A stretch of 15,666 nt of DNA from Promethearchaeota archaeon (GTDB taxonomy: Archaea > Asgardarchaeota > Lokiarchaeia > Sigyniarchaeales > SOKP01): positions 1-15,666 of the forward strand of contig JAFGOA010000207.1 of the NCBI GenBank assembly GCA_016926735.1. Direction: 5' to 3'. The first letter of the stretch is position 1; each line of letters starts with the position of its first letter. A program made the translations under genes and the position numbers. Below are positions 2,995 to 15,666 of the stretch, in pieces. The notes below the pieces were generated by a model. The model saw only the letters and a list, made by a program, of their open reading frames with translations. It searched no databases and was not told the origin of the DNA.

Positions 2995-3190
2995 TTCTAT
3001 ATACCATAAATAATTATTATTTTACAAAATTTTTGTTATCTAATATATAATAACAAATCAAATTATTATTAATATATTTTAAGCAATATTTCAAATTTTT
3101 TTTTGTTTATAGAAATTTAAAAATTGGACTCTAAAAATAATTTTATATAATTAGATTTTATATATATTATAAAAAGATTAATAATTATTT
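2995..3190. promoter_or_regulatory. Divergent promoter region between vps4-vps25 and ESCRT-III
   Basis: About 200 bp of very AT-rich sequence between head-to-head genes, with TATA-like TTTTATATAA at 3141-3150 and further TATA-like runs. The exact boxes cannot be resolved. Confidence 0.55.
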
Positions 3191-3197
3191 AGGTGAT
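3191..3197 (+). promoter_or_regulatory. Shine-Dalgarno site (AGGTGAT) for ESCRT-III
   Basis: Archaeal-type SD 5 nt upstream of ATA 3203. Confidence 0.75.
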
Positions 3198-3202
3198 CTC
3201 TT

Positions 3203-3829
3203 ATAGGATTTTTAAAAGATATTAGTGGATGGTTATCTGGAGGTAAAAAATCAGATAATATACGTTCTGCAAGCATAAAATTAAAGGTATTTAACAAAAG
3301 GTTATTACGTCAATCTAAAAAATTAGAAATGACTTCAAAATTAGCAAGAGATAAAGCAGTTCAATTAAGACAACAAGGAGATATGGAAGGATCAAAATTT
3401 CACGCACGAAATTATTTACAAGTTAAAAAGCAAGCTCGGGCTGTGGATGCTTTTAGAACTAATTTAGAAGGACTGCTCTTTAAATTAGAACAAGCAAGTG
3501 CAATTAGTGATGTAGCAGGGATTATGAAAAATATTTCTCAATCCGTTGCCACTCTTAAAGCTACCTTATCAATACCTCAAATAACAGAAATGATGACAGA
3601 TATTAATATGAATATAGAAGACTTTGAAGTTACATCAGAAATAACAGCCGAAGGAATTGATGGCATAACTTTAGACACAGCAGTTACAGACAATCAAGTT
3701 AATGAAGTTCTCGGCGAGATCGATGCAGAGATTAATGTAGAAATGACGGGCGCCCTTCCTAGTGTAGTTTCAAATGAAAAAATTGATGAGCTAGAAAAAG
3801 AACTAAACAGACTTAAATCAAAAGATTAA
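3203..3829 (+). CDS. ESCRT-III subunit, Vps2/24/46 (CHMP1/2/3-like) class, Snf7 fold; probable ATA start, 208 aa
   Basis: Basic N-terminal helical hairpin, acidic C-half (DNQVNEVLGEIDAE) and C-terminal MIM1-like DELEKELNRLK. The frame stays open 42 codons upstream of the track's ATG 3329, to ATA 3203 (in-frame TGA at 3194-3196), and SD AGGTGAT lies at 3191-3197. The extension reads (M)GFLKDISGWLSGGKKSDNIRSASIKLKVFNKRLLRQSKKLE. Confidence 0.9.
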   Translation: MGFLKDISGWLSGGKKSDNIRSASIKLKVFNKRLLRQSKKLEMTSKLARDKAVQLRQQGDMEGSKFHARNYLQVKKQARAVDAFRTNLEGLLFKLEQASAISDVAGIMKNISQSVATLKATLSIPQITEMMTDINMNIEDFEVTSEITAEGIDGITLDTAVTDNQVNEVLGEIDAEINVEMTGALPSVVSNEKIDELEKELNRLKSKD

Positions 3830-3837
3830 AATATTTA
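3770..3837 (+). repeat. 68-bp direct repeat, copy 1 (3' end of ESCRT-III gene plus stop)
   Basis: TCAAATGAAAAAATTGATGAGCTAGAAAAAGAACTAAACAGACTTAAATCAAAAGATTAAAATATTTA is identical to 6302-6369. Confidence 0.97.
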
Positions 3838-4041
3838 ATTTTAAATTCCTTACTTTAATTTTAAAAAATATCAAGATTGTTATCAGGTTATTTAAATTAA
3901 GCTCATTTAGATTCCTTTCTTTAAAATAGAAATAAATTATAAATAATTTGTCTAAAATTAGTCCTGATCCTGTTTATATACTTGTAAAAATTATTTAAAG
4001 TATAAACTTTAAAATCCAAAAAATTAAATGATTTTACAAAA

Positions 4042-6024
4042 ATGAAATTTCATAAAAATTTAAAAATATTATTTATTTCATTGTTTTCTGTTATTATATT
4101 TTTTAATTTAAATAATCTATTTATATATGATAATACAATAGACTATACAGCTAATCCTAATTTAGAAAGGGCACAATCTGAAATTATATTAACCAATCCT
4201 CTAGAACCATTTTATATTGAATCTTCTATTCCAATAAACATTATTTTTATTGGATTTGATTCAGTATATATCAATACATCTTATATTAATAACTCTTTAG
4301 AGGATTTAATAAAACCAACCTATAGAGAAATTATTGATGATGAAATAAAATCATCTTACATGGGAGCTATTTATAATCTAGAATATAATTATTATTTTTC
4401 TGATGGTACGTCTCTGGAATTGGATTTTGCTAATTATTTAGCTTCTATTGAAACAGATATATTACTTCCATATAAATTACTAGAATATGATCCTACAGCA
4501 ACAACTGCAAAAGAATATTCTGCTGTGGACGCTATTACCTGGTTAGATAACAATATAAACAACTATTTTTCTGAAATAAATAATAGTTATTGTTTCTATC
4601 TCATTGATCTTTACACTCATGGACTTATCCAAGATTATCATTATTATTCAATTGTTTTTGAAGATGCAACAATAGGATCTCCATCAACTATAATAGAGTA
4701 TACTATCCTTTATGGTGGTGAAATCCCAAATAGAGGTGTTTTTCTTGATTTATCTGCAGGACCAATTTATCATTATGATTTCATTCCCATAGAAGATCCT
4801 ATGATAGATGGTGTTTCTCCAGAGGAGATTCCACCTATTTGGGAGTATTCTTTTCCTTTAGATAAAGATGCTCTTAATAATGAGTTTATAGAATATATCA
4901 GAGATTTATCTAATTATATATTTTTACCTTGTTATGTCTATGAACCAATGATATATGAAGAGAAGAATAATATAAGAATTGTTATTTTTGATAATACTAC
5001 GGGTAATCTGTTTTCAAGTAATCCAAATAATTATATAGATAAAAATGTCATAAAAAATACCATTGAAGAGTTGATTCCTAATTCTCAATGGGATGTCTCA
5101 ATTCATACAGAATCTATATATACTTTCCCTGAATTGGAAAGACTGATAATGGAAGCAAAAAATTCTTCAATTATACAAAGTCGAATATATGAGAATATAA
5201 CAGTCTATTTAAAGAATTTCTATAATGAATTAGGTATATTTGAAGATACTATTCCTGTATTTATGTTTGCATTACCGGAAAACATAATCATTGCAGGATT
5301 AGGTGTAACTGGAGTTTCTCTTTTTGAGAGAGTTATTGTTATTGATGGAGGATATGATAGTGAAATATTAACTGATCATACAAATTTAATTGTTCATGAA
5401 GTAGGACATGAAATAGGATTATTACATCCATTTAATTACTATACAATTGATAAAGATAATGTGGATAACCTTTATGTAGATTTCCTATTTAATTTTATTT
5501 CTACACCAATGAGTTATCTACACAGTGATACTTCATATAGTACATTTGATAGAGATGCAATTGCTCGAGCCCATTCATTCAAATATATAAATAAAACTTG
5601 GGAATTATTAAATATAGCAAATACCACTCTTTTAAACAATGGATTTACCAATTTGGATCTCTTTTTAGAAAAGGAATTAAATTATATTTTCTCAAATCAA
5701 TCATTTTTTTATAATACATATGAGTCTGAAGACTTTATAGAAGCTCAATCTTATGCAAAACAATCATACCTCTCTGCTCAGCTATATTATGAGTATGCTA
5801 TTACTTTACAACAAAATAATAGACTAGGCGATGTAAATAATGACGGTAATGTTAATATTGTTGATGCTATGTTAATAGCTCAATATTATGTAGGTATATC
5901 TCCTGAGATCTTCTATCCAGAAGTCGCTGATGTTAATGGAGATGGAATTATCGATATTGTTGATGCTTTATTAGTAGCTCAATTATATGCAGGTATAATA
6001 GATGAATTTCCAATAAATCCTTAG
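4042..6024 (+). CDS. Secreted/membrane-anchored metzincin-type zinc metalloprotease with C-terminal type I dockerin-like domain
   Basis: N-terminal signal/anchor MKFHKNLKILFISLFSVIIFF. Zinc motif HEVGHEIGLLH (HExxHxxGxxH, 5395-5427) and Met-turn-like TPMSY. Paired Ca-binding dockerin repeats GDVNNDGNVNIVDAMLIAQY and ADVNGDGIIDIVDALLVAQL (from 5827). Confidence 0.85.
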   Translation: MKFHKNLKILFISLFSVIIFFNLNNLFIYDNTIDYTANPNLERAQSEIILTNPLEPFYIESSIPINIIFIGFDSVYINTSYINNSLEDLIKPTYREIIDDEIKSSYMGAIYNLEYNYYFSDGTSLELDFANYLASIETDILLPYKLLEYDPTATTAKEYSAVDAITWLDNNINNYFSEINNSYCFYLIDLYTHGLIQDYHYYSIVFEDATIGSPSTIIEYTILYGGEIPNRGVFLDLSAGPIYHYDFIPIEDPMIDGVSPEEIPPIWEYSFPLDKDALNNEFIEYIRDLSNYIFLPCYVYEPMIYEEKNNIRIVIFDNTTGNLFSSNPNNYIDKNVIKNTIEELIPNSQWDVSIHTESIYTFPELERLIMEAKNSSIIQSRIYENITVYLKNFYNELGIFEDTIPVFMFALPENIIIAGLGVTGVSLFERVIVIDGGYDSEILTDHTNLIVHEVGHEIGLLHPFNYYTIDKDNVDNLYVDFLFNFISTPMSYLHSDTSYSTFDRDAIARAHSFKYINKTWELLNIANTTLLNNGFTNLDLFLEKELNYIFSNQSFFYNTYESEDFIEAQSYAKQSYLSAQLYYEYAITLQQNNRLGDVNNDGNVNIVDAMLIAQYYVGISPEIFYPEVADVNGDGIIDIVDALLVAQLYAGIIDEFPINP

Positions 6025-6034
6025 TTTTTTTTTT
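6025..6034 (+). terminator. Oligo-T archaeal terminator
   Basis: T10 run directly after the TAG stop. Confidence 0.55.
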
Positions 6035-6295
6035 CCTTTCTATTTTAATATAATATAAAATAAGATTTAATCCAATATTTCTGTAGTATAATTATCTTTT
6101 TCTTTATAATTCAGATATAAATTGAATTATCTCCCTACTTAATCAGAATGGTTTAAATTTTAGTTTTTTAATTTATTAATATAGTATATTATTATACTTC
6201 TATGTAAATTCAAATCTTTTGCTATTAAAGAAGCATTAACTCTGAGTTGATTTTCAATGAAACTTAGTATATCTAATATATGTTGAAAATTTAGA

Positions 6296-6361
6296 ATGGT
6301 CTCAAATGAAAAAATTGATGAGCTAGAAAAAGAACTAAACAGACTTAAATCAAAAGATTAA
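6296..6361 (+). other. 21-aa mini-ORF / ESCRT-III gene fragment MVSNEKIDELEKELNRLKSKD (isolated MIM1-like tail)
   Basis: ATG 6296 is in frame with repeat copy 2 and ends at TAA 6359-6361. There is no SD and expression is unproven. Confidence 0.35.
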
Positions 6362-6369
6362 AATATTTA
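6302..6369 (+). repeat. 68-bp direct repeat, copy 2
   Basis: Exact match to 3770-3837 at offset 2532. It extends to about 3767-3842 / 6299-6374 with two mismatches. Confidence 0.97.
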
Positions 6370-6515
6370 TTTTTGATATCTATAATTTTCATTTATTCTA
6401 ATACTTAAATCAATTTTTAGACAATTCTCGATTTTTTATCTAAACATGAAGAATATATTTGTCTTATCTAAAGGTTATAAGAATTAATTTATCCAAATAT
6501 TGTGATATAAATATT

Positions 6516-8702
6516 TTAGACCGTATTTAGTTTTTTAAATATTTGAGAGGCTTTATTAAGATAAGACATTGCTTTAGAAATATTACCCATTAACATATAT
6601 GTTCTTCCAAGGTTTTCCATTTGGATAGCTGCTCCTATTAAATCCTCAATCTGATTATTAATTCTTAAAGCATTCTCAAACATTGAGATTGCACCATTAA
6701 ACTGTCCTATTGCAACATATGCTTTCCCAATATTGTCAATATTTTTTAATTGTTCTGATATAGCTCCAATTTGCTTATTAATCTCTAATGCTTTCTTAAA
6801 ATACTCAATAGCATTGAAATAATCATATTGAATATAGTAATATGATCCGATGTTATTTAGACGAATTGCTTTTCCAGCAGAATTATCTAATTGTTCATCT
6901 ATTTCTAAAGCCATTTTATACATTTTAAGTGCTTCTGATTTTCCTTTTTCAAATTCATAAACAAGTCCTAGATCATTTAATATTTCAGCTTTAAGGGAAA
7001 TATTATCAATTAAATTTGCAATATCAAGTGCTTTTTCAAAAATTAATAATGATTCAGAATATTTTTTTTGATTATAAAGAATTTCTCCTATATTCGATAA
7101 ACATGAAGCATAGCCTTCCAGATTACCTAATAGTTCAAAAATCTGTGATGATATTTTATATTGTTCTAGTGCTTTATCTAAATTATGTTGAAATTTATAT
7201 ATATTACCAATATTATTTATTAAAACAGATTTATTATGTAAATCACTTAATTTTTCAGTAATAATAAGAGCTTGTTTATAATTTTTTAATGCTTTTTTAT
7301 ATTCTCCTTGAAATCGATATATATCTCCAATACTATTTAGAAAGACAGATATACTTCTTGAATTTCCTAAATCAGAAACAATTTTCAATGCTTTTTCCAT
7401 ATAATGTAGAGCTTCTGAATATTTTCCTTTCTTTTTATATATCCAAGCAATATCATTCATACAAGAAGCAATTCCGTCTTTATCAGATAATTCTTCATAT
7501 ATCTCTAATGCTCTTTCATAATAAGCAAGAGCCTCTAAATTTTGACCTAAATTATTTATACTATGTCCTATATTTCTTAAAGCTATGGATTTCCAATATT
7601 TGTTATTCTCATTATTAGAGAATTCTAATATAAAACGAGAACAACGAAGAGAATCATTATATTGTGAAAAATTTTGATATATTAAATTTGCATTTGCATA
7701 TTTTCTAAATTGATCTGGTTTTTGAAATTTTTGTTTTAACCAAATTTTTGGAGTTATCGAAAAAGTATCTTGTTTTTTAATATTTTTATTGGAAGACATA
7801 TTCCTAATCATTAGAGATGTGTTAACATCAATTTTATAGATATTTTGAGCAACTTTTCTATGATATAGGTTGTGCAGAATTTGATCTACTTTCTTTGATG
7901 TAGATGAAGAAGGTTCTTTAGAATCTATTTTATAAATCTTTCCTATTCCATCATTATCTGAAATATAATTTATCCATATAAGATTTTTAATGTTCTTTAG
8001 TACCAATAATGTAGGAATAATGTCAAAATCATCCATTCCAGAATAACCGATAATAACAAGTGATCTTCTTTCTGTGGCATTTATAAATAGATTTTTTTGG
8101 AAAGGGTAGAGTTGAAATAAATTTAATCCTTCTTTATTTTTTCCGAAAGCTTGAATAGTTGCAATTAATGACTTTTTTGTATTCTTCTCGGGATTAATAA
8201 TATTTTTTGGAGAACCATGAATTTTATAAATTGTCTTTTTTCCTTTTTGATATAAATCGTTAGGATCTATATATTTCTTAAAATCGGTTTTTGTAATAAC
8301 AGGGAGAATCTCATCATTGGGAACTCCTAATTGTTGTAAAGCATTTTCTATTAATGAATCAAAATTAGTTGTTAATACAAAATGTCCCTTTTTAATCATA
8401 TCTGCTAAGAATATGTGCTGTAAATTTGAACTTTTACATTCTCCATAGAAATCAATAATCTTTAGATCCTTATCAATAGTTTTCCTCATAATTTCAACTA
8501 ATTGTTCAAAACGAAGATCTTTTAATTTTAAAATGTTCTGTATTTCAGATGGAGCACAAATAAAATTAACAATTTCTTCTATCATTTCTCTACCTGCGGG
8601 AAGACAAGAAGGTGGGTCAACAGAACACCCAGCACCTACTAAAAAAGTTATTTTTTCACTTTCCGCAAACAATTCCTCAATTTTCTTATCAATAATTTCC
8701 AT
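6516..8702 (-). CDS. SIR2-like (SIR2_2) domain + tetratricopeptide repeat protein
   Basis: Sirtuin-fold motifs FLVGAGCS..P..LP, TTNFD, KIHGS and IGYSGMDDFDI. The C-terminal half has about nine ~40-aa TPR-like repeats (LNNIG..Y.....Y..AL..Y.KAL.I). Confidence 0.9.
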   Translation of the reverse strand: MEIIDKKIEELFAESEKITFLVGAGCSVDPPSCLPAGREMIEEIVNFICAPSEIQNILKLKDLRFEQLVEIMRKTIDKDLKIIDFYGECKSSNLQHIFLADMIKKGHFVLTTNFDSLIENALQQLGVPNDEILPVITKTDFKKYIDPNDLYQKGKKTIYKIHGSPKNIINPEKNTKKSLIATIQAFGKNKEGLNLFQLYPFQKNLFINATERRSLVIIGYSGMDDFDIIPTLLVLKNIKNLIWINYISDNDGIGKIYKIDSKEPSSSTSKKVDQILHNLYHRKVAQNIYKIDVNTSLMIRNMSSNKNIKKQDTFSITPKIWLKQKFQKPDQFRKYANANLIYQNFSQYNDSLRCSRFILEFSNNENNKYWKSIALRNIGHSINNLGQNLEALAYYERALEIYEELSDKDGIASCMNDIAWIYKKKGKYSEALHYMEKALKIVSDLGNSRSISVFLNSIGDIYRFQGEYKKALKNYKQALIITEKLSDLHNKSVLINNIGNIYKFQHNLDKALEQYKISSQIFELLGNLEGYASCLSNIGEILYNQKKYSESLLIFEKALDIANLIDNISLKAEILNDLGLVYEFEKGKSEALKMYKMALEIDEQLDNSAGKAIRLNNIGSYYYIQYDYFNAIEYFKKALEINKQIGAISEQLKNIDNIGKAYVAIGQFNGAISMFENALRINNQIEDLIGAAIQMENLGRTYMLMGNISKAMSYLNKASQIFKKLNTV

Positions 8703-8805
8703 TAGAATTCTTGAAACCTAAATGAAAAATGCTATTTTAAGGTAGAGATTTTCTTTATAATCTTTATTTTTTTTTATTTAAATACAAAGAACATTTTTAT
8801 TATGT

Positions 8806-9180
8806 ATGAAAGTTTTAAAAGTTAAACTAAATGATAGATCTTTGAAATGTGGTATTTGTCATTCTCGAATTGCAAATTCTTCTAAAATTTATAATTCCGA
8901 GCTTTTATTTATTCCTTTCTGCTATAATTGTGAAAAAAAATTTGATAAAGAAGAGAAAAAGGTAATATTAACCTTATTGGAATCATATGGTGGATATTTT
9001 GGAATATTTTCAAGAGAGGACTATTCTTTAGAAAAAGATCTTAATTTCATCATAAAAAAAAACCCTAAAATTAATTCTAAAGAGGATCTAGATGGAATTA
9101 ATAGTAAATTACTTCATAATGCTTTACTGCATGGAATTACAATTCATGAATATATATCAAAATTAGAACTACTGATATAA
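8806..9180 (+). CDS. Hypothetical zinc-finger protein (CxxC...CxxC)
   Basis: CGIC and CYNC pairs, then YGGYFG. TATA-like TTTAAATA at 8777-8784 is at a leaderless-type distance. Confidence 0.7.
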   Translation: MKVLKVKLNDRSLKCGICHSRIANSSKIYNSELLFIPFCYNCEKKFDKEEKKVILTLLESYGGYFGIFSREDYSLEKDLNFIIKKNPKINSKEDLDGINSKLLHNALLHGITIHEYISKLELLI

Positions 9181-9288
9181 TGATCTTATTTTCTTTAATT
9201 TAAAAATTCTTAAATAAAGTTTTTAAGAATAGATATTATTTCTAATTTAATTTAAAATGTTATTATTATTTAAGAATAGGAGAAAATA

Positions 9289-10311
9289 ATGAAACCAGAA
9301 TTAATCACAATCGGGAGCTGCACTCTAGATTGCATCATTCAAATTGATGATATTCTAAGATTTGAATTACTTGATAAACATACAATTAAAAAATATACTG
9401 CTGTTGAATATAGTCGCAAAATGAATGTAGATAACGTCAGATTCGTACCTGGAGGATCTGCTGCTAATATAGCATCAAATTGCGCAATGTTAGGATTAAC
9501 AACCGCTTATTTAGGTGTTTTAGGAAAAGATTTTTCAGCACAAATATGTATGGATGATATGAAAAAGAGAGGAGTTGATCTTTCTGATATTCTTCAGACT
9601 GATAAGGATAGTACAGCTTTTTCAGTGATATTAAAGACAGAATGGGGTAAGGATAGAAGTATTTTAGCTTATAAGGGTGCAAATAATTTACTAAAACCTG
9701 AAAATATAAAAGAAGAGTTATTTGATAATATAAAAGCATTAGTTTGGACATCATTAACAAATGAAGAAGCTTGCAAAGCAATAGATAAAGCGATTGATAT
9801 TACAAAAAAGAAAGGAGGAAAAGTCTTTGCAGCCCCAAGTATGTCAATCCTTTCTCATAATAGGAAATGGGCTAAAATTCTGATTTCAAAATCAGATGTA
9901 TTATCATTAAATAAAGAGGAAGCGAAAGAAATTACAAAAAAAGAAGAATCTCTTGATATGTTGAAAAAACTTCATAATTGGGGTATTAAATTAGTATCAT
10001 TAACAGATGGTCAAAATGGGTCAATTTTATTTGATGGAGAAAATATATTAAATAGTTCTATTTTTGAAGGCCCTGTAGAAGACACAACAGGAGCAGGTGA
10101 TGCCTTTATGAGTGGGATTCTTATTTCTACTCTCAATAATTTCTCTTTAAAGAAAACTGCGAGGATTGCTGCTGCTATGTCCCACTTGGAATGTAAAACA
10201 ATGGGTGTACGAGTAGGATTGCCAACTAATCTTCAGGAGTTAGAAAAATTCATTGAAGCAAATAATATCAAACAAACAGAGACTAAATTAGTTAAAACAA
10301 CTGATGATTAA
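9289..10311 (+). CDS. PfkB/ribokinase-family carbohydrate or nucleoside kinase
   Basis: PfkB signatures PGGSAANIA...LG and DTTGAGDAF, plus N..EA. SD AGGAG upstream. Substrate not determinable. Confidence 0.93.
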   Translation: MKPELITIGSCTLDCIIQIDDILRFELLDKHTIKKYTAVEYSRKMNVDNVRFVPGGSAANIASNCAMLGLTTAYLGVLGKDFSAQICMDDMKKRGVDLSDILQTDKDSTAFSVILKTEWGKDRSILAYKGANNLLKPENIKEELFDNIKALVWTSLTNEEACKAIDKAIDITKKKGGKVFAAPSMSILSHNRKWAKILISKSDVLSLNKEEAKEITKKEESLDMLKKLHNWGIKLVSLTDGQNGSILFDGENILNSSIFEGPVEDTTGAGDAFMSGILISTLNNFSLKKTARIAAAMSHLECKTMGVRVGLPTNLQELEKFIEANNIKQTETKLVKTTDD

Positions 10312-10456
10312 AATCAATAAAGAATATCCTGTTTTTTTTATTACATTTTTTTAAAATTTTAATTTTAAGATTATACTTATACAAATCTTTATTAATAGCA
10401 ATTCTTATAATCTGTTTGAAATAATTTTAGATTCTAGTATTTAAACGGAGATTAAA

Positions 10457-11584
10457 ATGAAGCGTATAATCTTTTTTATTAAAAAATATTTTGTACCCGT
10501 TTTATTATTTTCAATTTATGAAATCTTTTGGATTACTGCAGGATTAATCGTAATTTTCTTTTTTCCACATGAATTTCAATATGAAATAAGTCCATGGATC
10601 CCAGGAAAAACGTTGATAGTTGAATTAATGGTAGTTTTTGTTATATATATACCTGCTATGGGATTTGTAGGATATCTTCTGGGAGGGTTTATTTTAGCTC
10701 CAATTTTCCTTTATATACATAAGAAAATAATAGGAAAAAAATTGCTATATGGAATTCAAGAAAAACCTACTCCAACAAAAGTTAAATTCTTTGGAAAGGG
10801 TTTTTTTCCAATTATGTTTGCATTAATGCTAGCAACGAGTTTTTATACGAAATTTTTAACAGATGATATAATTAATATAATATATTCTCCCGAATTTAGA
10901 GCTTTTCTTATGAGCACTAACACAGAAGAAGTGCAACTAAGCAATATAGTTAGCTTAGTAGTTACTCTCCCTTGGACATTTGCCATTTCAATGTTTCTTT
11001 TTGCTTCAATATGGTTTTTAAAGAATTCTGGAATTATCTATTCAAATGAGATGAAAGTCAAATCTATTTCAGAGCCATTTATCGTAAGATCTGTTGGAGG
11101 GTGGTTCCATACAGTTATAAAAGGATATGCAGGTATTGGAGTTATTGCAACCTATTTCACGATAATTCTTAATTTGATTTCAACTTATTTAGAGGATAAT
11201 CAATTCCAATACGTTATAATCGCATTAGTCGTATGGATATTATTATTAATTATGATTTTATTAGCTACAATTCCAGGATTAATTTTTAATGAGATGATAA
11301 GGCATAAAAGTGGGAATTATGTAAGAAAACATGGTGCAAAATTAGGTATAGTAGAATTTGCTGAAATTAAATTAACATTCAAGAAAATGAAAGTATCTGA
11401 AGAAGAAGTATTACCAGAAATGGAAAGAATTATAGAACCAGAATATGAAGTTACAAAAGTTCTTGAAAGTAGTATTGATAAATTTACCACTCAAGATTTT
11501 GAATCAGAAACTCCAGAGCATATCCATGAGATTTCTTTTAAAGAGAATGAAGAAAATAAAGAAAAAAAGCAGGGGGATATTTAA
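10457..11584 (+). CDS. Polytopic membrane protein (~6 TM) with acidic C-terminal tail, unknown function
   Basis: Several long hydrophobic segments, an E-rich C-terminal ~60 aa and SD GGAG upstream. Confidence 0.8.
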   Translation: MKRIIFFIKKYFVPVLLFSIYEIFWITAGLIVIFFFPHEFQYEISPWIPGKTLIVELMVVFVIYIPAMGFVGYLLGGFILAPIFLYIHKKIIGKKLLYGIQEKPTPTKVKFFGKGFFPIMFALMLATSFYTKFLTDDIINIIYSPEFRAFLMSTNTEEVQLSNIVSLVVTLPWTFAISMFLFASIWFLKNSGIIYSNEMKVKSISEPFIVRSVGGWFHTVIKGYAGIGVIATYFTIILNLISTYLEDNQFQYVIIALVVWILLLIMILLATIPGLIFNEMIRHKSGNYVRKHGAKLGIVEFAEIKLTFKKMKVSEEEVLPEMERIIEPEYEVTKVLESSIDKFTTQDFESETPEHIHEISFKENEENKEKKQGDI

Positions 11585-11730
11585 TTTTAAATTTCTAGAG
11601 GAACTATTGTTTTTTTATTTATTTATTTTTTTATTTTGATATTTTATAAAAACCCAAATAACAAAGAAAGTACGGCTTTTCCAATTAGGTTAAATTTTAA
11701 TATCTTTTTAAATTTATTAACTTAATTTTA

Positions 11731-12735
11731 TTATTCTGCGCTTGTAGTATAGAAGTAATAATTAATGGCTTTACATATTAAATCTTCTTGGAATTTTCTT
11801 TTCAATAAATGTTTCTGAATTTGAATCTTAGTTAATCCTCTTTTCTTTAAGGTTCTAATTATCATTTTCATCCTATAGAGCTTCACTTGATCTGTAAAAA
11901 AATCTGGATCTCTTTGGAATGTCTTGATATTTCTCTCGATAAGGTCACAATAGTGTTTTTGATAATCATTTCCAACAGCGATCCTTCCAAGTCGTAATGC
12001 CTCAAGCAACGTTGTGCCAAACCCAGCAAAGCAATCAAAAACAACATCTCCTTTATTTGAAAAATATTTAACTAAATGATGAGGAATTTCAAGTGGAAAT
12101 CGTGCTGGGTGTACATCCTGCAAATCTGGGGGAATTGGCTCGATTTTCCAAATTGAACGTGAAAAATTGGTAATAAATGACTGTTTATGAAATAAGGGAT
12201 CTTTGATGTAATCTGATTGCTTTATATCACTTGATTTTTTAAATATAAAAATATATTCGTGCGACCAGTTCGGCTTGTAATAAAAACTAAAGGGTTGGTA
12301 AAGATATCTTTGAGAATGGAGCTTTCTATCGTCCAGTTCGATTGTCTTATCCCAAATAATCGTGTCTTCCCAGATAAAAAACTCTGAAAGGATGTTAAAA
12401 AAGTGAAATGAGAGGGGAAAATGGATTTTATTTGAACAGATATCAGATATAACAATAATTATATATCCTGACTGCTTGAGGAGTCGTTTCAGGCGAATAA
12501 AAATATCTCGCATTTCCTTAAGATAATTCTGGTAATGTATAAGCGTCTTTTCTTGTGTGCTGAGATTTTGGGATAGTTTCGCATTCTGGATAAGGGGAGG
12601 TAAATTTGCGTGTTTTTCATAATCTCTTGCGTTGAAATAAGGAGGCGAAGTAAGAATTAATTGAACTGAGTTTGACTGAAGCTCTTTTAAGCAATCCTGC
12701 TCTCTTAGATCTTTATTTAATATTAGATACTTCAT
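11731..12735 (-). CDS. Orphan beta-class N4-cytosine/N6-adenine DNA methyltransferase
   Basis: Catalytic motif IV TSPPY precedes HPARFP and the SAM-binding motif I DCFAGFGTT (beta order). Also IIWDK and HEYIFIFKK. SD GGAGGT at 12750-12755. Confidence 0.92.
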   Translation of the reverse strand: MKYLILNKDLREQDCLKELQSNSVQLILTSPPYFNARDYEKHANLPPLIQNAKLSQNLSTQEKTLIHYQNYLKEMRDIFIRLKRLLKQSGYIIIVISDICSNKIHFPLSFHFFNILSEFFIWEDTIIWDKTIELDDRKLHSQRYLYQPFSFYYKPNWSHEYIFIFKKSSDIKQSDYIKDPLFHKQSFITNFSRSIWKIEPIPPDLQDVHPARFPLEIPHHLVKYFSNKGDVVFDCFAGFGTTLLEALRLGRIAVGNDYQKHYCDLIERNIKTFQRDPDFFTDQVKLYRMKMIIRTLKKRGLTKIQIQKHLLKRKFQEDLICKAINYYFYTTSAE

Positions 12736-12798
12736 TTTCTTTTTTTTATACCTCCTATTTTTTAAAATTACACTAAAAAGAATTGAATATTTTTAATC

Positions 12799-13320
12799 TT
12801 AGATTTCTTTTTGACAGTTCCTTAGGTCTGTATCGTTCTTTATATCTTTTTCAATATCATTAGGAAGTATAGTGATCTTATTTCTGCTAATTTTGTACTG
12901 ATCATGATATTTTACACTGTACCCATCTCCTGTATCCTGAATACCGTGGGTAAACATAACAGAAATAACTTCATTATCATAGTCAATAAGTTCATAATTA
13001 CAATATGCCCCATTTAATCGCTTATACCCCATATTCGCATATATTTCCTTCCTTAATATCTCAAGCATTTCAATACATTCGAAATACTGCTCTTCTGAGA
13101 GTTCTTGTTTTAATGTCTCAATTACATTCTCTTTAATTTTATCATCCTGCTCATATTCAATATAGTCAGAAAAATCGTTTACTTTAATAATATCGGTTAT
13201 AAGATCATAAAAACGATCAAACAACATCGACTTAAGAGTGCTGGGATCATAGCAAGAATCGTCGAAGGTCTCGCTGTCCCACTCTGTTGAGTCGATCTCA
13301 ACTTTAAAGATTAATTTCAT
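12799..13320 (-). CDS. Acidic hypothetical protein (MGE-like)
   Basis: 173-aa D/E-rich ORF with strong SD GGAGG at 13331-13335, co-oriented in the operon. Confidence 0.7.
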   Translation of the reverse strand: MKLIFKVEIDSTEWDSETFDDSCYDPSTLKSMLFDRFYDLITDIIKVNDFSDYIEYEQDDKIKENVIETLKQELSEEQYFECIEMLEILRKEIYANMGYKRLNGAYCNYELIDYDNEVISVMFTHGIQDTGDGYSVKYHDQYKISRNKITILPNDIEKDIKNDTDLRNCQKEI

Positions 13321-13396
13321 TTTTTTTATCCCTCCTTTTTTTTTATTTTGGATTTTTATTGATTTTAATGTGATTTTTGATAATTTGAAAAAAAAA

Positions 13397-13804
13397 TTAA
13401 TTGGAAATAGAATATTTTTGACTGAGAAGGTGCGATAACCATTGGTTTAAGAACTGGTTGAGCTGTTTTTTGAGGGTTGGATTGAAGTTGTTGCTCTCGT
13501 CATACACTCTCTGAAATACGCCTAAATTATCCTGCTGGAAGGTGAGGGCTTCTGCCATGTTGTATTTTTTAATGATCCTCACTTCCATATCGGGATCGCA
13601 CATAATATCCCCATTATGTTTATAATTGTGAGCAATTGAGATGATAAAAGAATCATCGTCTCCATTGTTATATCGTAAAAAATCAACGTGGAGATCCATA
13701 AATCCAGCACTCTTATAGTTGAGATATCCTTGGGCGATAAGCCAATTAAAATCGATAAATTTAGTTAATTTTGTAAAAATCCTTTCATAAATTGTCTTGT
13801 TCAT
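13397..13804 (-). CDS. DUF1249/DUF6908-like protein
   Basis: Motifs GFMDLHVD, SIAHNY..NGD.MCDPDM, AEALTFQQD and LNQFLNQWL, recognised from memory of this MGE-associated family. SD AGGTGA at 13812-13817. Confidence 0.7.
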   Translation of the reverse strand: MNKTIYERIFTKLTKFIDFNWLIAQGYLNYKSAGFMDLHVDFLRYNNGDDDSFIISIAHNYKHNGDIMCDPDMEVRIIKKYNMAEALTFQQDNLGVFQRVYDESNNFNPTLKKQLNQFLNQWLSHLLSQKYSISN

Positions 13805-13822
13805 ATCTTTTTCACCTTCCTA

Positions 13823-14005
13823 TTAGATTAGACCTAATGTTTTCAGGGGATTTTTTTTAGAACATTCTGGGCATCTCTCATAATCAGGCTCTAAATCCCC
13901 ATATTCGCAATAAGGACATAAAATAATTTCATCCATAATAGCCCTCTCCATCATTGCTTCTATTTCCTCTCGGGTAAGTCTTTTCTTTTTTATTATATTA
14001 CTCAT
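13823..14005 (-). CDS. Small zinc-ribbon protein
   Basis: CPYC-x10-CPEC with LEPD and NPL..LGLI. First gene of the minus-strand operon. Confidence 0.75.
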   Translation of the reverse strand: MSNIIKKKRLTREEIEAMMERAIMDEIILCPYCEYGDLEPDYERCPECSKKNPLKTLGLI

Positions 14006-14067
14006 TTTTTCTTATCTCTTTTTTTAAGTTAATTATATTTGAATTTATTACTATATAATTACAAATG

Positions 14068-14081
14068 GAGTATTTAAACTC
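14068..14081 (-). promoter_or_regulatory. TATA box (TTTAAATA) within an imperfect palindrome, upstream of the MGE-like operon
   Basis: The + strand reads GAGTATTTAAACTC. On the minus strand this gives TTTAAATA at 14071-14078, ~65 nt before ATG 14005. Confidence 0.45.
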
Positions 14082-14493
14082 AAAGAAAAATAATCAAATC
14101 CTCTTAATATCCCTTAAAATAATCTTAAACATATAAATAGAATATATGTGCAGACATTGACTAGGTGCTTTGAATCTATCTTCTGTAAAGATTGATTGTA
14201 TTGCTATTTCAATAGTTATACTTATGGAATTCTAATAGGAAAAAGAAGAGTAGAATGCGTTAAAAGGCTGTAATTAGCGAGAATAACTGAGGAATTACTA
14301 CAATAAATATGAAATTCCAATCTTCCTATGATCACTCCTTTTTTAATCAGATCAAATAATAATGATATTTAATAGCAATTAAAAAGTGCTAGTTTAGCAA
14401 TTCTCATAATAATTATCAATATATCTATAGTATTTTTTTCTTTAAATTGAGAGGAGTCTTTTTAAATATAAACTAATTATCAATAGTTAGACC

Positions 14494-15273
14494 ATGAGCA
14501 AAATTCTTTCGAAAATAACATGGATTTTAGGTATAATTGGAATTTTGTTATTCTCAATCTTATCTGTAAAATTATTGAGTATTAACAGTTTAAACGGAAT
14601 CTATTTCTTATTGTATCTTGGTCTTACAATTGCCTCATGCTATTTGATAAATTTTATTTTAAAACAATATCGATCGGATGAGAATTATGCTTTTGATATT
14701 ACGATAAAATTATTTATAGTGTTAATTTTCTTCCTTTCATATCTTATCACTTTTGTCCATGAAAGTGGGCATGCTTTCTTATTAATGATTTTTAATATTC
14801 CTTTTTCTGAATTTAATGTTCGAGTGTTAAGTGGAGAAGTTGTTTTCTCCCAAACACTTAATCCACAAGAAGCGTTATTCATCATTTCTGCAGGAACGCT
14901 TTCCTTATTAAGTGCGTCTTTTATTATAATAATTTTACTGGCTTTAAATAGAAAAATTAAAGCAGAAATATTTTATGCTTTCTTTTTTGTTATGGGGGTT
15001 ATAATTTTGAATGATTTTGATTATTGGATAAGGGGTACTATTAACCAATTTGGAGACCCATGGATGCTTCTTGAATTCAATCCTTCAATTACTCCTGAAC
15101 TACTTATTTATTTTACTAATTCACTTCGATTAATATCTATAATCTTTTTTTATTTTCTTTTCCAAATAAAGCACACTCAATATTCGCAAAGAAAAAATAG
15201 GTTCATTTCTATACAATTAATTACGCTGTATCATTGGAAAGTACTGATTAAAATCTCCCAAGAATCTAAATGA
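14494..15273 (+). CDS. M50/M50B-like (site-2 protease type) membrane metallopeptidase
   Basis: Membrane-embedded HExxH (TFVHESGHA), then ISAG and a GD motif, with multiple TM segments. TATA-like TTTAAATA at 14461-14468. Confidence 0.7.
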   Translation: MSKILSKITWILGIIGILLFSILSVKLLSINSLNGIYFLLYLGLTIASCYLINFILKQYRSDENYAFDITIKLFIVLIFFLSYLITFVHESGHAFLLMIFNIPFSEFNVRVLSGEVVFSQTLNPQEALFIISAGTLSLLSASFIIIILLALNRKIKAEIFYAFFFVMGVIILNDFDYWIRGTINQFGDPWMLLEFNPSITPELLIYFTNSLRLISIIFFYFLFQIKHTQYSQRKNRFISIQLITLYHWKVLIKISQESK

Positions 15274-15332
15274 TATCTAAATAACGCTCTAAATCCTCTT
15301 AAAATACAAAAGTGCTATTTTCCGAAGGAAAT

Positions 15333-15494
15333 TTATTTATTTTTCTTTAGTTTTTCTCCTCTTAGTTGGTATTCGGGGCAAATTTTATAGCAAGGAAAAT
15401 TACAAATCACTTCTGACTTGGGGAGAATACAGCTATTGGAAAAGGGGCAAATTAAAATATGCTTATTTAGATATGTATTTTTTTCAATACTCAT
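15333..15494 (-). CDS. Small Cys-rich protein (53 aa), absent from the ORF track
   Basis: Hand translation: MSIEKNTYLNKHILICPFSNSCILPKSEVICNFPCYKICPEYQLRGEKLKKNK*. It has five Cys, and TTTAAATA on the minus strand at 15516-15523. Confidence 0.6.
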   Translation of the reverse strand: MSIEKNTYLNKHILICPFSNSCILPKSEVICNFPCYKICPEYQLRGEKLKKNK

Positions 15495-15666
15495 ATAATA
15501 ACACTATTATCTGCATATTTAAATAAAAAATTAAAATTCACTATGTAAGTATAATCTTCTTCGCATCATTTTCACGCTATTTATAAAGGAACAATTCTAA
15601 TTATTTCTTTCTTTAAAAACGTAACTAAAAATGCTAAAATCCAACTTTTTTTCTATTTATTTTAAG

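What the first reader, a model, noticed from the sequence alone, without database searches (positions are those of the whole stretch)
3770..6369. ESCRT-III 3' end used as an att-like integration site: exact 68-bp repeat brackets a single cargo gene
Seen: the last 60 nt of the ESCRT-III CDS plus 8 nt of flank (3770-3837) recur exactly at 6302-6369, enclosing only the metzincin-dockerin gene. Established: integrative elements that target a gene's 3' end (usually tRNA, sometimes protein genes) duplicate that end so the target stays intact. Inference: an element or integrase-less cassette mobilised in trans inserted into a eukaryotic-signature membrane-remodelling gene and preserved its Vps4-binding tail. 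The perfect identity suggests a recent event. Recombination between the copies would excise a 2532-bp circle.
Basis: partly seen in the sequence, partly recalled or inferred. Interest (0 to 1): 0.85.

Follow-up and report, generated by a model that had tools for sequence, protein, structure and literature searches.

The report
Orphan ESCRT-III tail beside inserted protease gene
In a Lokiarchaeota genome, a single protease gene was inserted just after the ESCRT-III gene and the gene's last 68 bases were copied in the process; this is a real insertion scar in a gene-swapping hotspot, but nothing shows an active mobile element with its own attachment site.

Summary
The exact 68-bp direct repeat (3770-3837 and 6302-6369) is real. 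It occurs only twice in the 3.9-Mb genome and brackets only the metalloprotease-dockerin gene.

The insertion is genuine:
- One sister species (G002) has an empty site. G001 and six other genera lack the gene, as does a fifth lineage (L049) with other cargo.
- The protease family was found in only 3 of 121 family genomes.

The "recent, att-like, integrase-driven" reading is not supported:
- The closest relative, G003 (about 94% genome identity), has the same insertion, so the event most likely predates that split.
- In G003 the two copies differ at 8 of 68 positions, within a roughly 450-bp patch of foreign-looking sequence.
- There is no recombinase, no terminal inverted repeat and no hairpin. 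No third copy turned up in the genome, the viral contigs or the metagenome contigs.
- The same spot holds other insertions: SIR2-TPR in this genome only, an IS fragment in G003, and a Na/Ca-exchanger block in L049. Each has a different or no flanking repeat.

Best reading: a core-gene-flanked accessory-gene hotspot, where recombination anchored in the ESCRT-III 3' end left an orphan 3' fragment. This resembles icdC beside e14, or the orphan 3' ends in Rhs and T6SS arrays. Excision could not be tested, because only contigs were available. Interest is modest.

The parts
3197..3829 (+). ESCRT-III (Snf7 family) gene. The likely start is ATA at 3203, after a TGA at 3194-3196. This is the conserved anchor upstream of the hotspot.
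   Evidence: Pfam Snf7 E 6e-15. Orthologues are 94-98% identical in amino acids within the genus. The AGGTGAT...ATA start context is conserved in four genomes.
3770..3837 (+). Repeat copy 1: the functional last 19 codons plus stop of ESCRT-III, and 8 nt of flank.
   Evidence: Exact identity to 6302-6369. The amino-acid sequence is identical in G002 although 14 of 68 nt differ.
3838..4041 (+). Left flank of the inserted segment, upstream of the protease gene. Its first ~100 nt (3838-3935) resemble the ESCRT-III downstream spacer of G002.
   Evidence: Anchored alignment against an empirical null of 1500 gene 3' flanks gives p about 0.001 over 52 nt and 0.016 over 98 nt. It is not similar to the flank after copy 2.
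4042..6024 (+). Cargo gene: a secreted metallopeptidase-like protein (HExxHxxGxxH) with a C-terminal dockerin.
   Evidence: Dockerin_1 E 6.6e-12. There are only weak peptidase hits, M57 and Reprolysin_3 at E about 0.3. The catalytic part is unique in the genome. Found in 3 of 121 family genomes.
6025..6301 (+). Right flank of the inserted segment, with no ORF. It is 98.6% identical to G003.
6302..6369 (+). Repeat copy 2: an orphan ESCRT-III 3' fragment. It can be read as a 21-codon ATG ORF from 6296.
   Evidence: The G003 copy 2 differs by 1 nt, which changes a Leu to His.
6370..6462 (+). Native intergenic spacer that originally followed ESCRT-III. Together with 8770-8805 it is collinear with the 109-nt spacer of the empty site in G002.
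   Evidence: Near-gapless alignment (fewer than 1 in 1500 null flanks score as well).
6463..8769 (-). Second, independent insertion found only in this genome: a SIR2-TPR gene (6516-8702, minus strand). It is flanked by an imperfect 29-nt repeat, 6432-6460 and 8770-8798, with 24 of 29 matching.
   Evidence: Absent from G003, G002 and salt-marsh contigs. Repeat p about 0.002. Pfam and PADLOC show SIR2 plus TPR.
8806..9180 (+). A 124-aa ORF with no confident family, which forms the conserved right border of the hotspot in G000, G002, G003 and the L049 lineage. PfkB kinase follows at 9289-10311.

Best explanation
The spacer between ESCRT-III and the next conserved genes (the 124-aa ORF and PfkB) is an accessory-gene hotspot in this Lokiarchaeota genus. 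A foreign segment of about 2.46 kb carrying one protease-dockerin gene was captured there in the common ancestor of G000 and G003, after G002 had split off. The joining event was anchored in the 3' end of ESCRT-III and duplicated its last 60 nt plus 8-13 nt of flank. Copy 1 keeps the gene whole. Copy 2 is an orphan fragment still attached to the original downstream spacer.

Inferred, not shown: host recombination did this, not a cargo-encoded integrase. Either one end of the incoming DNA paired with ESCRT-III and the other joined illegitimately (homology-facilitated illegitimate recombination), or a circular intermediate carrying a piece of the ESCRT-III end integrated by a single crossover.

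Later, recombination with a diverged allele overwrote about 450 bp in G003, covering the 3' half of ESCRT-III, copy 1 and 50 nt beyond. That is why the copies differ in G003 but are still identical here. The 68-bp repeats could in principle recombine and pop out a 2532-bp circle. This is untested.
For: - Empty site: in G002, ESCRT-III is followed by a 109-nt spacer and then the 124-aa ORF. That spacer aligns almost without gaps with the flank after copy 2.
- In G001 and six other genera, ESCRT-III is followed by PfkB, directly in most and after about 1.1 kb in G004.
- The protease is rare: 3 of 121 family genomes and 10 close homologues in the protein collection, in varied contexts.
- The insertion is shared with G003 at 97% identity.
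- Hotspot behaviour: the SIR2-TPR gene is present only in G000. A 368-bp IS630-like fragment is present only in G003, with a 9-bp duplication. The L047-L049 lineage carries a 3.3-kb block with a Na/Ca exchanger, a carbonic-anhydrase fragment and DUF6431, and no ESCRT-III repeat.
- Mosaic divergence between G000 and G003: 1.7% at 3197-3438, 9.8% at 3439-3886 (binomial p 5e-9; densest 250-nt window has 31 differences against a null maximum of 25), and 2.8% in the cargo.
- No recombinase in the window; one PF00589 and three PF00239 hits lie on other contigs.
- No terminal inverted repeats, no hairpin, and cargo GC like the host.
- At the cargo's divergence rate, zero differences in 68 nt since the split has P about 0.16, so no special homogenising process is needed.
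Against: - The mechanism is inferred from anatomy only. No intermediate, donor locus or junction microhomology was shown.
- The flank after copy 1 looks like a diverged copy of the ancestral spacer (p about 0.001-0.016). A plain in-place 68-bp duplication does not predict this. It fits a donor from a homologous locus, but then the exact identity of the 68-mer needs a crossover at the very end of the homology or a later gene conversion.
- At genome-wide divergence (about 6%), P of zero differences is about 0.02.
- A trans-acting recombinase cannot be excluded.
Confidence: 0.55

Rival explanations
1. A decayed or non-autonomous site-specific integrative element. A tyrosine or serine recombinase, now lost or acting in trans, recombined an attP carrying a substitute ESCRT-III 3' end with the chromosomal gene, as e14 and phage 21 do in E. 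coli icd.
For: The direct repeat sits at a gene's 3' end and the ORF is preserved. Empty sites exist. In G003 the copies differ at 7 sites shared with the window comparison: 6 synonymous and 1 after the stop, with the first 21 nt identical. This is the pattern seen for icd and icdC (PMC13626634). The flank after copy 1 looks like a foreign version of the spacer.
Against: No recombinase lies in the 2.5-kb cargo or anywhere on the 15.7-kb contig. The 99%-complete genome has only one PF00589 gene. There is no third copy in the genome, no hit in the viral-contig collection and only two chromosomal hits in metagenome contigs. The elevated divergence in G003 starts about 330 nt left of the repeat, which an att crossover inside the repeat does not explain. 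Other cargo at the same spot lacks the repeat.
Confidence: 0.2
2. Repair or replication by-product. Foreign DNA was joined into a staggered break or by template switching, and fill-in created a 68-73-nt target duplication in place, with no homology-guided step.
For: The copies are exactly identical with sharp edges in G000. Three insertions at the spot have flanking duplications of different lengths: 68, about 29 and 9 nt. This does not fit one enzyme with a fixed stagger.
Against: Target duplications this long are not known for archaeal end joining (my own knowledge, not tested). This reading does not predict the spacer-like sequence after copy 1. The 29-nt repeat around SIR2-TPR is only 83% identical although that insertion is younger than the G000-G003 split, so at least that one was not made by simple fill-in.
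Confidence: 0.12
3. Assembly artefact: two unrelated contigs joined through a shared 68-mer.
For: The genome is a fragmented metagenome bin of 238 contigs. The repeat is longer than common k-mers, and the Logan unitigs break at it.
Against: G003, a JGI contig and Logan contigs from other studies carry the same order across both junctions. This includes strains where the copies are not identical.
Confidence: 0.02

Closest known systems
e14 / phage 21 integration into E. coli icd, leaving the icdC pseudogene
   Same: An insertion at the 3' end of a protein-coding gene. The gene stays intact, and an orphan C-terminal fragment lies at the far end of the insert. The copies can differ by synonymous changes, as in G003 (PMC13626634).
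   Different: e14 is a roughly 15-kb prophage with its own integrase and SOS-induced excision. Here the insert is one gene of 2.5 kb, with no recombinase and no evidence of excision.
Displacement of 3' ends and cassettes by homology-facilitated illegitimate recombination (T6SS effector-immunity arrays in Vibrio; orphan Rhs/CdiA 3' regions)
   Same: A conserved upstream gene serves as anchor. New DNA is added next to it, and an old 3' end is pushed downstream as an orphan. Different lineages carry different cargo, and the anchor has mosaic recombination tracts (PMC5361080).
   Different: Those systems swap toxin and immunity modules that are part of the anchor gene's own function. Here the cargo is unrelated to ESCRT-III, the organism is an archaeon, and the recombination machinery is unknown.
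Integrated mobile elements of Asgard archaea (Atabeyarchaeia iMGEs, Heimdallarchaeia aloposons)
   Same: Insertions in Asgard chromosomes that vary between strains.
   Different: The described elements are multi-gene, encode tyrosine integrases and/or ParB-like proteins, and use short motifs such as an 11-bp attachment site (PMC11529989; PMC8813620 not read in detail). None of these features is present here.
Casposons
   Same: Archaeal elements that are flanked by direct repeats of target sequence (target-site duplications).
   Different: Casposons have terminal inverted repeats, a Cas1 casposase and target duplications of 13-22 bp (PMC8464041). None was found here.

Membership tests
Site-specific integrative element (tyrosine/serine recombinase, attL/attR) | Recombinase gene inside or next to the element | tested here: not met
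   Pfam scan of 16 of the window's 23 ORFs of 60 aa or more, covering all its long non-nested ones, shows none. The genome's only PF00589 hit is on C228, and the three PF00239 hits are on C12, C188 and C162.
Site-specific integrative element (tyrosine/serine recombinase, attL/attR) | Direct repeats of the target at both ends, and a single-copy empty site in relatives | tested here: met
   68-bp exact repeat. G002 and G001 have one copy and no cargo.
Site-specific integrative element (tyrosine/serine recombinase, attL/attR) | The same att sequence on a free element, a virus, or at other cargo | tested here: not met
   Two copies only in the genome. There were 0 hits in viral contigs and 2 chromosomal hits in metagenome contigs. 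The L049-lineage cargo has no second copy.
Site-specific integrative element (tyrosine/serine recombinase, attL/attR) | Excision products (circle junction and empty site) in the same population | not testable with these tools
   Only Logan contigs were available. With an exact 68-mer longer than k they cannot tell the junction forms apart.
e14/icd-type 3'-end replacement | The element supplies a substitute 3' end that differs mainly by synonymous changes from the orphan host fragment | tested here: inconclusive
   In G003 the copies differ at 8 sites: six synonymous, one after the stop, and one G003-specific change in copy 2. In G000 they are identical. The divergent tract in G003 extends 330 nt left of the repeat.
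Transposon / IS / casposon | Terminal inverted repeats, short target duplication of fixed length, and a transposase or casposase | tested here: not met
   The best alignment of the two cargo ends as inverted repeats scores below the shuffle mean. The duplication is 68 bp. No such gene is present.
Integron gene cassette | attC-type imperfect palindrome at the cassette end, and IntI nearby | tested here: not met
   The 68-mer folds at only -1.4 kcal/mol. No integrase is on the contig.
Diversity-generating retroelement (TR/VR pair at a gene's 3' end) | Reverse transcriptase nearby, and differences confined to adenines of the template repeat | tested here: not met
   No RT domain appears in the window ORFs. 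The G003 differences are C/T, A/C and T/A in both directions.
Core-gene-flanked accessory hotspot with recombination-mediated capture (HFIR-like) | Conserved flanking genes, different cargo in different lineages, and recombination tracts in the anchor gene | tested here: met
   Five states of the locus occur in five lineages. A patch at 3439-3886 has 9.8% divergence against 3.6% elsewhere, p 5e-9.
Core-gene-flanked accessory hotspot with recombination-mediated capture (HFIR-like) | Microhomology at the illegitimate junction, and an identifiable donor locus | tested here: inconclusive
   Six of the 10 nt left of the repeat match between the copies, which is not significant. No donor locus was found: the protease homologues lie in unrelated contexts.

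The most novel reading that the evidence does not exclude
The protease cassette belongs to an integrase-less class of cargo that spreads among related Lokiarchaeota using only host recombination. It would pop out as a circle through its flanking repeats and re-enter other genomes through the highly conserved ESCRT-III 3' end that it carries as a portable homology arm. Copy 2, read as a 21-codon ATG ORF, would in addition give a free Vps4-binding tail peptide.
Probability: 0.07. Interest if true: 0.65.

Novelty: new member of a known kind. Interest (0 to 1): 0.3.

Why it matters
It shows that the ESCRT gene cluster of a Lokiarchaeota genus borders a spot where accessory genes come and go: a secreted protease, a SIR2-TPR defence-like gene, an ion exchanger and an IS remnant. 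It also shows that the ESCRT-III gene itself carries recombination tracts. That is useful background for anyone reading Asgard ESCRT loci as stable, vertically inherited markers. It also gives a clean natural example of a gene-end duplication made without a visible integrase in an archaeon. It does not reveal a new kind of mobile element.

Tried and rejected
- Laying public runs on 3000-9400. Only Logan contigs were available. No joint of the form 3837 to 6370 or 6301 to 3838 was listed, but contigs cannot show either when the repeat is exact. This is therefore no evidence for or against excision. The uneven contig depth over the cargo in the probable source run was not interpreted.
- The scan of viral contigs with a degenerate 45-nt pattern of the ESCRT-III end found nothing. 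The metagenome scan found only a G003-like and a G001-like contig.
- A genome-wide search for other isolated long local repeats bracketing genes. The other long repeats are parts of diverged paralogue duplications, internal domain repeats, a small multi-copy sequence or the CRISPR array. I found no second case of this architecture.
- Protease homologues elsewhere: the G001 paralogues and three metagenome contigs are not next to ESCRT genes and show no 3'-end duplications.
- Spacers downstream of ESCRT-III in other genera could not be aligned to either flank.
- DGR, integron, casposon and IS readings were rejected on missing defining features (see the membership test).
- Whether the cargo moved between G000 and G003 after their split. 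The cargo is 97.2% identical, against 90-97% for other long matches, so it is at the upper end but within range. Not claimed.
- Which of G000 and G003 keeps the original state of copy 1. Outgroup polarity is mixed. I favour G000 as original because one recombination patch in G003 explains all the differences, but this is not proven.
Full report
**Observation.**
Positions 3770-3837 and 6302-6369 are identical over 68 nt, and the exact match does not extend by a single base on either side. The repeat covers the last 19 codons and the stop of a Snf7-family ESCRT-III gene, plus 8 nt of flank. That gene sits in a typical Asgard cluster: an EAP30/Vps22-36-like gene, Vps25, Vps4, then ESCRT-III. Sources name close homologues as Lokiarchaeota or Promethearchaeota.

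The only ORF of 60 aa or more between the copies is 4042-6024. It encodes 660 aa with an N-terminal hydrophobic segment, an HExxHxxGxxH motif and a dockerin. The window is the whole contig C29 of a 3.88-Mb, 238-contig genome. The 68-mer occurs there exactly twice. Among all local exact repeats in the genome it is the third longest. It is the only long one bracketing a gene whose flanks drop straight to background identity.

**Not an assembly artefact.**
- The sister genome G003 has the same order: ESCRT-III, protease, second copy. Its two copies are not identical, so no assembler ambiguity exists there.
- A JGI contig that is 99.7% identical to G003 covers the cargo end, copy 2 and what follows.
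- Logan contigs from other studies bridge 3773-4273 and 6305-6396.
- In the probable source run the unitigs stop at 3837 and resume at 6340, as expected for an exact repeat longer than k.

**It is an insertion.**
- In G002 (same genus, about 79-84% nt identity), ESCRT-III is followed by a 109-nt spacer and then the 124-aa ORF that lies at 8806 in the window.
- In G001 and in six other genera of the family, PfkB follows ESCRT-III, directly in most and after about 1.1 kb in G004.
- The G002 spacer aligns almost without gaps with the sequence after copy 2 (6362-6462, continued at 8770). None of 1500 other gene 3' flanks of this genome fits it as well. So copy 2 is attached to the original downstream DNA, and copy 1 completes the gene.
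- The protease family was found in only 3 of 121 genomes of the family. It has about ten close homologues among 5.8 billion proteins, in unrelated and variable contexts.

**Age and the meaning of perfect identity.**
G003 shares the insertion at 97% identity. Other long G000-G003 matches are 90-97% identical, mostly 93-95%. The simplest reading is one event, before these two species split and after G002 branched off.

In G003 the functional copy differs from the window's 68-mer at 7 positions: six synonymous and one after the stop. G003's orphan copy differs at 1, which turns a leucine into histidine.

These differences are part of a longer tract. Between G000 and G003, divergence is 1.7% at 3197-3438, 9.8% at 3439-3886 and 2.8% in the cargo. 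The tract stands out at p about 5e-9, and its densest 250-nt window exceeds all 500 permutations. G003 is the more aberrant of the two against the outgroups at 3655-3769. One recombination import of about 450 bp into G003 therefore explains why its copies differ. It leaves G000 with the original, still identical pair.

At the cargo's divergence rate, the chance of zero changes in 68 nt since the split is about 0.16. At the genome-wide rate it is about 0.02. Gene conversion in G000 therefore remains possible. Either way, perfect identity does not mean a recent insertion.

**A hotspot, not a dedicated site.**
Three further indels lie in the same roughly 100-nt spacer:
- Window 6463-8769, carrying a SIR2-TPR gene on the minus strand. 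It is absent from G003, G002 and salt-marsh contigs, and it is flanked by an imperfect 29-nt repeat with 24 of 29 matching, p about 0.002.
- In G003, a 368-bp degenerate IS630-like fragment right after copy 2, with a 9-bp duplication.
- In a fifth lineage (contigs L047-L049, 79% identical), 3.3 kb holding a carbonic-anhydrase fragment, a Na/Ca exchanger and a DUF6431 gene. These loci have no second copy of the ESCRT-III end and no long flanking repeat.

Five lineages thus show five states of this locus between the same conserved genes.

**No element machinery.**
- No ORF scanned in the window has a recombinase, transposase, Cas1 or reverse-transcriptase domain.
- The 99%-complete genome has one Phage_integrase-family gene and three small resolvase-family genes, all on other contigs.
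- The cargo ends show no inverted repeats, the 68-mer has no hairpin potential, and cargo GC (25%) matches the host.
- No viral contig carries the ESCRT-III end.

**Mechanism (inferred).**
The anatomy is a conserved anchor gene, an orphan copy of its 3' end pushed downstream, varied cargo, and recombination tracts in the anchor. This matches what has been described for displacement by homology-facilitated illegitimate recombination in T6SS and Rhs loci (PMC5361080). It also formally resembles icd and icdC around e14 (PMC13626634).

One unexplained detail bears on the choice. The first ~50-100 nt after copy 1 also resemble the G002 spacer (p about 0.001 over 52 nt, 0.016 over 98 nt), yet they do not resemble the flank after copy 2. 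This suggests the incoming DNA came from the homologous locus of another lineage, bringing its own version of the spacer. It argues against a simple fill-in duplication.

I put about 0.55 on host-recombination capture, by single-end anchoring or single crossover of a circle. I put 0.2 on a lost or trans-acting site-specific recombinase, 0.12 on a repair or replication by-product, and 0.02 on an artefact.

**Excision.**
Recombination between the two 68-mers would give a 2532-bp circle and restore the empty site. Nothing available here could show it, because only contigs were on hand.

**Verdict.**
It is not supported in its specific claims of a recent event and an att-like site of a mobilisable element. 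This is a new example of a known kind of genome scar, in an interesting place. Interest is modest.

Noticed in passing
window 3191-3210: ESCRT-III has no ATG, GTG or TTG in frame before 3329. The context AGGTGAT followed by ATA GG(A/T) TTT TTA AAA is conserved in all four genomes of the genus, and the 42 upstream codons are conserved as protein. An ATA start at 3203 is therefore likely.
   Followed up: partly
window 6463-8769: The SIR2-TPR gene (defence-like; PADLOC hits to SIR2 and TPR models) is an insertion specific to this genome. It is absent from the 96%-identical G003 locus. The genome has about eight paralogues on other contigs.
   Followed up: partly
L023 (G003:C74), reverse-complement coordinates 7139-7507: A 368-bp, GC-richer fragment encodes the C-terminal part of an IS630-type DDE transposase with in-frame stops. 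It is inserted directly after repeat copy 2 with a 9-bp duplication (AAATATTTA).
   Followed up: partly
window 6296-6361: Copy 2 can be read as a 21-codon ATG ORF giving the ESCRT-III C-terminal tail. In G003 the single substitution in this copy is non-synonymous (Leu to His in the NRLK motif). This gives no sign of purifying selection on such a peptide.
   Followed up: partly
L047-L049 (ENA contigs), e.g. L049 6230-9590: A fifth lineage of the genus carries a carbonic-anhydrase fragment, a Na/Ca exchanger and a DUF6431 gene at the same spot. L047 also has a TnpB/OrfB_IS605 gene where the window has its methyltransferase block. The region right of the 375-aa ORF is therefore a second variable spot.
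   Followed up: no
window 11762-15666: Homology to G003 and G002 ends at about 11761. The rest holds an N6/N4 DNA methyltransferase, a DUF6908/DUF1249 protein, a zinc-ribbon ORF and an M50-like membrane protein. It appears to be another accessory block.
   Followed up: no
L037 (G001:C113) 3129-3323, 5331-5526, 6811-6845: Roughly 200-nt intergenic repeats (77-94% identical) bracket single genes next to a protease paralogue in G001. Whether these are shared promoters of paralogues or cassette boundaries was not examined.
   Followed up: no
G000:C182 about 10100-12900: A CRISPR array with a 30-nt repeat (GTTGAACCAAAACATAAGATGTATTTAAAT) was seen during the genome-wide repeat scan.
   Followed up: no
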